Below, piece after piece: positions 36,001 through 39,000 of a DNA stretch of 64,000 bases (position 1 is the stretch's first letter; every line of letters starts with the position of its first letter). This DNA is from Candidatus Marsarchaeota archaeon (GTDB taxonomy: Archaea > Micrarchaeota > Micrarchaeia > Micrarchaeales > Micrarchaeaceae), in NCBI GenBank assembly GCA_023473665.1, contig JAMCYM010000002.1, positions 124,001-188,000 on the forward strand, read 5' to 3'. Made by a program: the position numbers.

Positions 36001-39000
36001 GATAGATCCGTTGAAATATCTATCCCACCTGCCTATCCCATTCATGTCAGGAAGCCCTATACACCCTATATAATTTGCGCCACCTGGATAATCGACTCCA
36101 TTTATATATCCTGTGGGGTGACCATTGCTCAGTACAAGTGCGGTAAATATCCATCTACCTTTAAAGGACTGAGACACACCCCATGAATTTCCCGTCGATG
36201 TGTTTCTTAGTTCAAATCTAAGTGAGCCATCGTTATACTCAATGTCATCCCAACCACCGCCGTAAAGGCCTACAACACCTCCTTCGGATCCTGACGATAC
36301 CATTCCAGAATCATACGACCACGCTGCTAGGGTTACATTACACATGACATTGTTTGAAAATGGAGAAGGGGGGATCACTACGCTGCTCTGCCCATTGAAC
36401 TGCGCCGCTTTCGTTTCAGCTATGACTTCTGTGCTGAGCTGCCTGGCGTATGTTGCAGGATTCGGTGGCTGTGCGTCTATGTAAACCACTCCATTTTCGT
36501 TTGCCACCTTGAGCAATCCTGTATATGCCGGCACGCTGTAAACCGTTATGCCGTTGTACGCGCTTGAGATGGTGCCGTTTATCAGCAGGTTTCTTGCAGA
36601 GCTGTACGCTATGGCTGTGATCAACGTCTTGCCCACAGTCTCGTTCGCTATCACTGCTCCGTCAGATGTTATGAACAGGTTGTATGGCTGGAGCGAGCTT
36701 GCCACAGGCATGCTCAGCGTGGCGTTGTAGCCGCTCCCTGCCACGAGCGCCTGGTCTATGTAGCTGGATATGTCCTGCGCCACGAGCTGCATCGATGCGT
36801 ATTGCTGCGCATTGAGCGTCGTGGATCTCTGCAAGGCGACGAGCCCGAACAGCACAAGGAACAATACAAGCACGAACGAGTATACTATTATGAACTCGAA
36901 GGCGATCTGGCCCTTGCTCCGTCGCCCCCTGGCCTGCCCCAGCATCAAATCCATTGTTATTAGATGAAAAGCATAATAAAGTTGTCGGGCTGCGTCTAAC
37001 TAAGTATCTTATGCATCTCCCCATGTCAGAAAATATAGGTTTCCAATGCACGCCAGAGCAATCCACTCCTACCTTCTAAAGTTGGATAGATCGTCCAGCA
37101 TGTTTCAATAAAAATTGACATTTCCGAAATAAAATAGAAAACTATTTATATGTTATGCTTGCTAAATATCCCGTATGGCCATAAGGATAGTCATAAGGTC
37201 TGTCGAGAAGCCGACCATCAAGAAGCCAGAGGACCTGATAGACTGGTTCTGCGAGGTCTTCGGCATAGGCACCGAGAGCGGTGCGGCCGACGCCGAGGAG
37301 CGCATATTCAAGGCGTTTGCATATGCGGCGTTCGAGAACAAAGGTTTATCAAGCTCGGACCCCAGCTTAAGGCAGGGCCTTGCAAGGAGCACAGTTATAT
37401 ACCATCTCAACAGGCTCATCAGCATGGGTCTGATAACGAAGCAGGGCCGCAAGTACCACCTGCGCGCCAACGAGATGTCGAAGGTGATAGAGGAGCTGGA
37501 GTATGACATCAACAGGGAGATGATGCGAATGCTCGATGCTGCGCACGAGTTCGACAGGCTGATGCTGCGCCAGCGCAGGACGCGCAGTCCACGGGCCAAG
37601 ATAAGCAAGGAGAGGTGATTGTATTGGCAGATAAAAAAGATAATGATGCAAATGGAGCCAAGAACGGACAGGAAGGAGGGAAGCCAAATACCAAAGAGCC
37701 AACTGTGACCAAGCAGGAGTACGACGAGCTCAAGGAGCGCATGCTGCGCATCGCGGCAGAGTTCGACAACTACAAGAAGCGCACAAAGGCCGACATAGAC
37801 AATGCCAAGGGCATCGGCAAGGCAGAGGTAATAAAGGGCATACTGCCAGTTCTTGACGAGTTCGAGCTCGCCATGATGGCAGTAAGCAATGCGGAGCCCA
37901 CGCTTGCGAAGGGCGTTGAGATGGTGTTCTCCAATCTTGTTGAGGCGCTGGCAAGGGAAGGGCTCAAGGCCATAGAAACAGACGGCATGTACGACCCGTA
38001 CAAGCACGAGATCGTGCTGGCCATGGAGAGCGACAAGAAGCCAGGCACCATATTGCAGGTGACCAAGAAGGGCTACACGGTGAACGGCATAATGATACGG
38101 CCGGCTTCGGTCATAATCGCGGTCGGCAGCGAGGCCAAGGAAGGCATCGAAGAGAAAGATGATATTAACAAAAACAACAAGGGCGAATAAAATGAGCAAG
38201 ATAATTGGAGTGGATTTAGGCACATCTAATAGCGCAGCGGCAGTGCTTGAGGGCGGACGCCCGTCAATAATCCCGAGCGCGGAGGGAACGTCGCTCTACG
38301 GCAAGGCGTTTCCGAGCTACGTGGCATTCACGAAGGACGGCCAGCGCCTGATAGGCGAGCCGGCCAGGCGGCAGGCCGTGGCGAACCCTACCGGCACTGT
38401 AACTGCATTCAAGCGCAAGATGGGCACAGACTACGTGTACAGCATATACGGCAAGGACTACAAGCCGCAGGAACTGTCGGCAATGCTGCTGCAGAAGATC
38501 AAGAAAGATGCAGAGACATTCCTGGGTGAGGAGGTCAAGCAGGCGGTCATAACAGTGCCTGCTTACTTCAACGACAACCAGCGCCAGGCCACGAAAGATG
38601 CGGGCGCAATCGCGGGCCTAGAGGTCGTCAGGCTGGTCAACGAGCCTACCGCGGCATGCCTGGCGTACGGCCTCGACAAGTCCGACAAGGAGATGAAGAT
38701 ACTGGTGTACGACCTCGGCGGAGGCACGCTCGACGTCACCATCATGGAGTTCGGAAAGGGCGTGTTCGAGGTGAAGAGCACGAGCGGCGACACGCAACTA
38801 GGCGGCACTGACATGGATAATCTCATAGTAGAGTTTCTGGTGGGCGAGGTGAGCAAGCTTGGCGTTGACGTGAGGAAGGACCCGCAGGCCATGCAGAGGC
38901 TGCGCGAGGCAGGCGAGAAGGCGAAGATCGAGCTCTCAACGGTCATGTCAAGCGAGATAAACCTGCCGTTCATAGCGCAGAAATCAGGGCAGCCTGTGCA

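What a model noticed while it worked through the whole genome (the two positions that open the first line are those of the whole stretch)
37175..37618. New winged-helix regulator heads the grpE-dnaK-dnaJ operon in place of HrcA
A 147-aa winged-helix protein of no family is the first gene of the grpE-dnaK-dnaJ operon, and HrcA is absent. It is likely the heat-shock repressor of Micrarchaeota. It would be a new archaeal heat-shock regulator family controlling a bacterial-type chaperone operon.
Evidence so far: Weak HTH_24/ArsR hits only; ortholog in 16 of 17 order genomes and in outgroup G083 (34%); directly before grpE in G013 and G014; HrcA 0.
(Added by a program. Inside this text positions count along the whole contig: contig position 124,001 is position 1 of the stretch shown here. 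"Call 12" and the like, gene names such as g00115 and contig names such as C1 are that model's own, and its searches are not shown. The text may have been shortened before it was handed on; [...] marks where a part breaks off. The agent that wrote the report below was given it as the finding of a first reader that could run no searches.)

Follow-up and report, generated by a model that had tools for sequence, protein, structure and literature searches.

The report
Chaperone-gene regulator of DPANN archaea
A small, unnamed winged-helix protein sits beside heat-shock chaperone genes across Micrarchaeota, Woesearchaeota and Methanofastidiosum, and a lineage-specific palindrome marks those genes' promoters, so it is likely an undescribed heat-shock repressor of these uncultured archaea.

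Summary
Confirmed and extended. The 147-aa gene is real and overlaps grpE by 4 nt. In 110 of 111 Micrarchaeota genomes holding both, the homologue lies within 1 kb of grpE (94 tandem, 16 divergent); HrcA was found in 0 of 151. Where GrpE is missing it sits by hsp20 or cdc48. The family extends to Woesearchaeota (grpE on the opposite strand in 70 of 80 loci) and Methanofastidiosum. In one genus it marks unlinked dnaJ, hsp20 and thermosome promoters (11 of 13 distant places). This genome's copy is degenerate (6-nt spacer). The protein is a predicted homodimer. It works like Phr/HSR1; no sequence kinship to Phr was found. Repression is inferred from sites over BRE, TATA or start site in most lineages. 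At this operon the site lies upstream of the BRE, so activation here remains possible. Binding and heat response are untested. The scan noted the Woesearchaeota branch before (e1-900728, e1-3628910, e1-3352315).

The parts
37103..37120 (.). Candidate operator, degenerate copy: TTTCAA-N6-TTGACA (family consensus TGTCAA-N7-TTGACA), centre about 34 nt upstream of the TATA box
   Evidence: Sequence. Best genome-wide matrix hit only when the spacer is shortened by 1 nt (17.0 bits, next 12.9; training sites 13.9-36.1). No gap at this place in contigs of 4 runs from 2 studies. Perfect N7 copy in same-genus G166.
37121..37139 (.). Possible weak second site: a third half-site (family consensus TWTCAA, here 4 of 6) whose partner half would overlap the BRE
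   Evidence: Third half-site conserved in 28 family sites (matrix columns 21-26); its role in this genome is inferred.
37137..37152 (+). Predicted BRE (GAAAA) and TATA box (TTTATATG) of the operon, 30 nt before the ATG, implying a leaderless or very short-leader transcript
   Evidence: Sequence; same placement in relatives. Start site not measured.
37175..37618 (+). Winged-helix regulator, 147 aa: N-terminal strand, helices, recognition helix about 71-83, wing 87-96, C-terminal helix 101-137
   Evidence: predicted homodimer through residues 2-28 and 100-134.
37615..38190 (+). grpE (start at 37615 or the in-frame TTG at 37624)
   Evidence: PF01025 E 9e-35
38192..40054 (+). dnaK (likely start 38192; longest ORF from 38159)
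   Evidence: PF00012 E 1e-213; sequence
40066..41211 (+). dnaJ
   Evidence: PF00226, PF00684, PF01556

Best explanation
The gene encodes a winged-helix protein that is predicted to dimerise and likely binds a 17-19-bp palindrome at chaperone promoters, likely repressing them, including its own regulator-grpE-dnaK-dnaJ operon, until heat or protein stress releases it. Shown: the gene, its fold model, its linkage to chaperone genes, and the palindrome with its positions. Inferred: that this protein binds the palindrome; that binding blocks TFB (site over or beside the BRE) or RNA polymerase (site over or just after the start); that at this operon two adjacent dimers about 19-20 bp apart reach the BRE. 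Least supported: the release signal. Heat-sensitivity of the coiled-coil dimer or titration by DnaK is assumed by analogy with Phr and HSR1; nothing here tests it.
For: Linkage: 110 of 111 within 1 kb of grpE, 16 divergent. Co-occurrence with GrpE: both 111, regulator only 5, GrpE only 2, neither 33 of 151 (G053 counted as lacking it because its hit is the paralogue). Of the 5 regulator-only genomes, 4 have it beside hsp20 and/or cdc48 and G094 is at a contig end. Palindrome at own promoter: family f1 28 of 41 at >=10/12, f2 15 of 19 at >=9/10, versus 0 of 30 thermosome promoters of the same order at either mark; Woesearchaeota-type loci 72 of 80 at >=11/12 versus 5 of 800 shuffles. Unlinked targets: in six genomes of one genus 11 of 13 distant places precede dnaJ (6), thermosome (3) or hsp20 (2). 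Repressor geometry: sites flank the TATA box in f3, f12, f18, abut it upstream at dnaJ, and lie 39-43 nt downstream of the grpE TATA in 66 of 68 scored Woesearchaeota-type loci. In 14 of 41 f1 genomes the same sites lie over the start and leader of a divergent hsp20, so release would free both promoters. Recognition-helix residues differ by clade along with the motif. Homodimer score 0.74, best control 0.01; mark reached by 20 of 30 solved pairs and 1 of 23 single chains; runs agree in >=95% of contacts, pLDDT >=84.
Against: No binding or expression data. At this operon and across the order the site is upstream of the BRE (42-44 nt from TATA in 21 of 28 f1 sites, 20-23 in 16 of 17 f2 sites), the position typical of archaeal activators (PMC6737238, PMC5937170). 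This genome's own site is degenerate and is not a top hit with the normal spacer. Motifs were derived from the same promoters they were scored on; the f8 consensus is so A/T-rich that shuffles often match it. The unlinked regulon rests mainly on one genus; in G001 two hits and in G090 one hit precede no chaperone, and in A/T-rich G007 and G051 control hits are frequent. Many Nanobdellota members are not chaperone-linked: 5 of 30 top, 6 of 20 second-copy and 12 of 16 lower-scoring loci. Kin are not independent.
Confidence: 0.65

Rival explanations
1. Position-dependent dual regulator: the same protein represses chaperone promoters where its site covers BRE or start, but activates its own regulator-grpE-dnaK-dnaJ promoter in Micrarchaeales, some f8 genomes and Methanofastidiosum by contacting TFB or TBP from upstream.
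For: Site-to-TATA distances cluster near 21-23, 32-34 and 42-44 nt, about one helical turn apart; a palindrome about 32 nt upstream in Methanofastidiosum-type loci. The site persists without a divergent hsp20 (17 of 27 f1 promoters; f2). Activators bind upstream of BRE/TATA and SurR and TrmBL1 act both ways (PMC5937170 passages; PMC4706686 abstract in listing).
Against: Where hsp20 is divergent, one bound array would switch hsp20 off and dnaK on, opposite responses for two heat-shock genes. A consensus VRAAA BRE is present in 19 of 30 f1 and 14 of 18 f2 promoters and in this genome, whereas TFB-RF1 targets have weak BREs (PMC5937170). The spacing also follows from a TATA box shared by divergent promoters.
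Confidence: 0.22
2. The protein represses these genes but senses something other than heat or misfolding, such as host attachment, growth phase or redox state.
For: No ligand or sensing domain is evident; glutaredoxin follows hsp20 in G006 and G102; a cysteine is common near position 26. Chaperones are reported as abundant in reduced-genome symbionts (PMC8407392 passage).
Against: Identified targets are almost all classic heat-shock genes, overlapping the Phr/HSR1 regulon of sHSP and AAA+ ATPase (PMC10653856 passage). The cysteine is not invariant.
Confidence: 0.09
3. The protein is a passenger or a chromatin-like Lrs14/TrmBL2-type factor, and another protein reads the palindrome.
For: Best fold match is the chromatin protein TrmBL2 (Z 8.7, rmsd 5.6, 116 aligned); weak Lrs14 hits in 61 of 110 members.
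Against: It is the one gene kept beside the site through all arrangements examined; the motif changes with the clade's recognition helix; the 6 paralogue promoters lack the motifs (best 7-9 of 12).
Confidence: 0.04

Closest known systems
Phr (Pyrococcus furiosus; PDB 2p4w)
   Same: Archaeal winged-helix regulator of hsp20 and an AAA+ ATPase, autoregulatory, binding a palindrome over the start site (PMC9133787, PMC10653856, PMC10746257 passages).
   Different: Phr chain is 198 residues; only 68 residues align (Z 6.9, rmsd 2.5, rank 29) and 2p4w is not among 55 profile hits at E<=10. Targets here include grpE-dnaK-dnaJ, groES-groEL and, in one genus, the thermosome, which the Phr/HSR1 regulons lack (PMC10653856).
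HSR1 (Archaeoglobus fulgidus)
   Same: In an operon with hsp20; its site CTAAC-N5-GTTAG (PMC9133787, PMC2396416) has the same N5 register and resembles the f8 variant TTAAC-N5-GTTAA.
   Different: Sequence kinship could not be tested; the f1 and Woesearchaeota motifs differ; different phyla and a DnaK-centred regulon.
HrcA/CIRCE
   Same: First gene of a grpE-dnaK-dnaJ operon (textbook Bacillus layout, recalled).
   Different: No PF01628 match in the protein or in 151 genomes; less than half the size; different operator.
TrmB/TrmBL2, Lrs14 and ArsR-type winged-helix proteins
   Same: Winged helix followed by a dimerising helix.
   Different: Only HTH-level similarity; no sugar-binding domain; extra N-terminal strand and helix in the predicted dimer interface.

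Membership tests
HrcA | HrcA domain PF01628 | tested here: not met
   No hit in the protein at E<=1; 0 of 151 genomes, 7 of 14 controls ring.
HrcA | CIRCE operator at the promoter | not tested
   No formal search; the conserved palindrome found is a different motif.
Phr | Sequence similarity to Phr beyond the generic HTH | tested here: not met
   2p4w absent from all 55 hits at E<=10 with profile A4, from the single-sequence search (0 hits) and from the 60 shown of 159 with A2.
Phr | Whole-chain structural match | tested here: inconclusive
   Z 6.9, rmsd 2.5, 68 aligned, tied with many unrelated winged helices.
Phr | Palindromic site over the start of hsp20/AAA+ genes | tested here: met
   Sites over predicted starts of hsp20, grpE, thermosome and the regulator-cdc48 operon in several clades; starts are predicted, not mapped.
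Phr | Heat-dependent release and blocking of RNA polymerase | not testable with these tools
   Needs biochemistry.
HSR1 | Sequence similarity to HSR1 | not testable with these tools
   No HSR1 sequence could be fetched.
HSR1 | CTAAC-N5-GTTAG site | tested here: inconclusive
   Same register; 4 of 5 per half-site for the f8 variant, fewer for this family.
ArsR/SmtB, Lrs14, TrmB | Score over the curated family cut-off | tested here: not met
   Window protein below Pfam cut-offs and no NCBIfam hit at E<=0.001; relatives give weak HTH-level hits to many families.

The most novel reading that the evidence does not exclude
One winged-helix family is the master heat-shock regulator of most DPANN archaea and flips sign with site position: it represses hsp20, groESL and thermosome, but in Micrarchaeales and Methanofastidiosum activates its own operon with dnaK from upstream of the BRE, giving an archaeal counterpart of the sigma32/HSF-Hsp70 feedback loop.
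Probability: 0.2. Interest if true: 0.82.

Novelty: new variant of a known kind. Interest (0 to 1): 0.66.

Why it matters
A 2022 review names only two archaeal heat-shock regulators, Phr and HSR1 (PMC9133787), and none of the papers I read names one for the archaeal DnaK system. This family supplies a candidate for two large DPANN phyla and Methanofastidiosum, with named operators that make binding and transcription assays possible in existing archaeal in vitro systems. It also shows a regulon gaining and losing targets (DnaK system, hsp20, cdc48, groESL, thermosome) while protein and site diverge together, and gives a natural test of whether a site upstream of the BRE can repress.

Tried and rejected
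Viral contigs: no relative of P0133. Foldseek PDB: nothing at E<=0.001. Wider regulon in this genome: upstream regions of cdc48, thermosome, an hsp20-like gene and two other AAA genes show no site, and none is among the top matrix hits. Wider regulon in the order: thermosome 0 of 30; the f2 pattern occurs once per genome in 5 of 5; the Woesearchaeota pattern gave 3 extra places beyond the regulator locus in 10 genomes, 2 inside genes and 1 before TFE-alpha. One-mismatch f1 matches are near control level. Assembly error as the cause of the 6-nt spacer: rejected. Expression: no RNA holder listed, which is no evidence either way. The 110-row tree was a quick tree with few supported branches; the FastTree is used only to separate clades, not for donor or order of events.

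Full report
Observation. The window encodes a 147-aa ORF at 37175-37618 whose stop overlaps the first possible grpE start; grpE, dnaK and dnaJ follow. Pfam gives only sub-cut-off HTH hits and NCBIfam none at E<=0.001. Named close homologues are mostly labelled Micrarchaeota. AlphaFold2 gives a winged helix with a long C-terminal helix, pLDDT 87.1. Fold searches return generic winged helices: TrmBL2 Z 8.7 (rmsd 5.6, 116 aligned), Phr Z 6.9 (rmsd 2.5, 68 aligned, rank 29). Two copies of residues 1-138 are predicted to pair through the N-terminal strand and helix and an antiparallel C-terminal helix, leaving helix 71-83 and the wing free: score 0.74, best control 0.01; the mark was reached by 20 of 30 solved pairs and 1 of 23 single chains; runs agree in at least 95% of contacts, pLDDT at least 84. 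This supports but does not show dimerisation.

Gene context in the phylum. The protein finds a match in 120 of 151 genomes, GrpE in 113, HrcA in 0 with 7 of 14 controls ringing. Of 111 genomes with both, 91 have them adjacent in tandem, 3 in tandem with hsp20 between, 16 divergent within 1 kb and 1 unlinked. With the wide profile, taking hits at E<=1e-17 and dropping G053 because its hit falls in the paralogue clade: both 111, regulator only 5, GrpE only 2, neither 33. Regulator-only genomes are informative: G005 has it divergent from hsp20-cdc48, G006 and G102 from hsp20-glutaredoxin, G060 before cdc48, and G094 is at a contig end; G014's second copy faces hsp20-groES-groEL. Six weak hits are a separate paralogue, next to HMG-CoA reductase or polyprenyl synthase in five, with no operator. 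So not every homologue is a heat-shock regulator.

Beyond the phylum. A search of 1.84 billion representatives gave 191 at E<=1e-10; named members include Woesearchaeota, Diapherotrites and Methanofastidiosum, and the Atlas look-alikes agree. One pattern found 548 related stretches in GTDB genomes; in the 80 best, grpE lies on the opposite strand in 70, dnaK in 65. In the phylum of one of these genomes, 129 of 151 match at E<=1e-8 and 118 at E<=1.5e-28. Linkage there is incomplete: 25 of 30 top loci, 14 of 20 loci from two-copy genomes (7 groES-groEL, 3 hsp20, 4 grpE) and 4 of 16 lower-scoring loci. Of 16 loci found with the Methanofastidiosum-cluster protein, 13 show regulator-grpE-dnaK in tandem, 2 end at the contig edge and 1 distant one does not.

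Operator. Promoters of family f1 carry TGTCAA-N7-TTGACA (28 of 41 at >=10/12; 41 of 45 available were examined), followed by a conserved third half-site. Of 15 exact matches listed in a 61-genome scan, all 9 for which I had regulator coordinates are at its promoter; 56 rows were not listed. Family f2 has TTCAA-N7-TTGAA (15 of 19 at >=9/10), f3 and several small families TGTTAA-N7-TTAACA (5 of 9 in f3), f8 an A/T-rich TTTTAA-N7-TTAAAA that shuffles often reach, and Woesearchaeota-type loci GTTGAY-N5-RTCAAC (72 of 80 at >=11/12, shuffles 5 of 800). All fit one 17-bp register with a 5-nt spacer, as does the HSR1 site. Consensus motifs were read from the same promoters, so the independent controls matter: 0 of 30 thermosome promoters of this order reach the marks, and unlinked targets appear. 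In six genomes of genus g42, 13 places lie away from the regulator's promoter: 6 before dnaJ, 3 before the thermosome, 2 before hsp20, 1 whose gene is off the contig, 1 not examined; reversed-pattern controls were 0 in five genomes and 2 in one. One further G149 place was taken as the regulator's own promoter cut by a contig end. G004 adds an unlinked hsp20; G001 (2 hits) and G090 (1 hit) give non-chaperone hits; A/T-rich G007 and G051 give many hits and many control hits. Recognition helices differ by clade together with the motif: RSTVIYHL in f1/f2, RITVIHHL in f3, QAAVVYHL in f8, RGTVIHHI in Woesearchaeota; kin share both, so this is suggestive only.

This genome. The site at 37103-37120 has a 6-nt spacer and one mismatch. 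It is the best genome-wide hit only when the matrix is shortened by 1 nt (17.0 bits, next 12.9). Contigs from 4 runs of 2 studies show no gap there, and same-genus G166 has a perfect site. No other chaperone promoter examined in this genome carries it, so the regulon here is likely the one operon, and binding may be weaker than in relatives.

Mechanism. In most lineages the position is that of a repressor: flanking the TATA box in f3, f12 and f18, abutting it upstream at dnaJ, about 28 nt downstream on the chaperone strand in f8 (read by eye), 39-43 nt downstream in 66 of 68 scored Woesearchaeota-type loci. In this order the chaperone genes sit behind the regulator and the site is upstream of the BRE: 42-44 nt from the TATA box in 21 of 28 f1 sites, 32-34 in this genome and two others, 20-23 in 16 of 17 f2 sites. 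Archaeal activators bind there (PMC6737238, PMC5937170). I still favour repression: in 14 of 41 f1 genomes the same sites cover a divergent hsp20 start, so activation would drive two heat-shock genes in opposite directions; most BREs are consensus (19 of 30, 14 of 18); and a second dimer 19-20 bp closer would touch or cover the BRE, as it would here. That the family regulates chaperone genes through this site I put near 0.9; repression at this operon with stress release at 0.65; dual action at 0.22. The release signal is not addressed by any result.

Known systems and novelty. It works like Phr and HSR1 but is not shown to belong to either: Phr is absent from profile hits (60 of 159 shown) and HSR1 could not be fetched. 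It is not HrcA. Papers: passages read from PMC9133787, PMC10653856, PMC8407392, PMC10746257, PMC6737238, PMC5937170 and PMC2396416; PMC4706686 seen only in a listing; no supplements opened. Ten searches found no description of the family. The Bacillus hrcA layout and the sigma32/HSF-Hsp70 loop are recalled. The scan's earlier notes describe the Woesearchaeota branch (seen after my own analysis of it); they are not independent evidence. New here are the Micrarchaeota and Methanofastidiosum branches, the clade-specific motifs, the unlinked regulon and the upstream-site problem. G028 is unpublished; it contributes one row to the phylum tallies, the f1 promoter set and the thermosome control, and no claim depends on it.

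Noticed in passing
L033:184-1893, L035, L036, L038, L039, L034:1865-2308: A distinct paralogue of the regulator in other Micrarchaeota sits before HMG-CoA reductase or opposite a polyprenyl synthase (Pfam-checked for L033, L035, L036): a candidate regulator of isoprenoid lipid synthesis. A further non-chaperone clade occurs in Nanobdellota (L279-L284).
   Followed up: partly
L246, L247, L250, L254, L257, L261, L264, L043: A second clade of the family lies divergent from bacterial-type groES-groEL (sometimes with hsp20), with a different recognition helix and no GTTGAY site seen; G014's copy groups with it in the tree.
   Followed up: partly
L290:1501-1517 (G253): Woesearchaeota-type operator just downstream of a TATA box before the TFE-alpha gene, in 1 of 10 genomes searched.
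   Followed up: partly
L024, L026, L028 (genus g2): A variant longer palindrome replaces the family motif, and these proteins have a changed wing (GHTY for GRKY): possible co-variation.
   Followed up: partly
L135-L214: An uncharacterised ~170-aa protein with a Cys-rich motif (51 of 80 loci) and a ~120-aa protein (31 of 80) recur, mostly between grpE and dnaK, in Woesearchaeota-type loci.
   Followed up: no
window 28682-36954 (-): Cluster of large genes with pilin-like N-termini; the one scanned (34246-36954) has Laminin_G_3 domains. Divergent from the chaperone operon here and in two relatives.
   Followed up: no
window 41268-41453 (+): 61-aa ORF after dnaJ with no Pfam or NCBIfam hit; possibly a gene remnant.
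   Followed up: partly
window 41500-46341 (-): FttA/aCPSF1-type beta-CASP nuclease, proteasome beta subunit and a TFB-like gene converge on the chaperone operon.
   Followed up: no
L139, L140 and others: Many records titled 'uncultured Methanosarcinales archaeon' carry Woesearchaeota-type proteins and gene order; the titles are probably generic, so I did not count them as Methanosarcinales.
   Followed up: no
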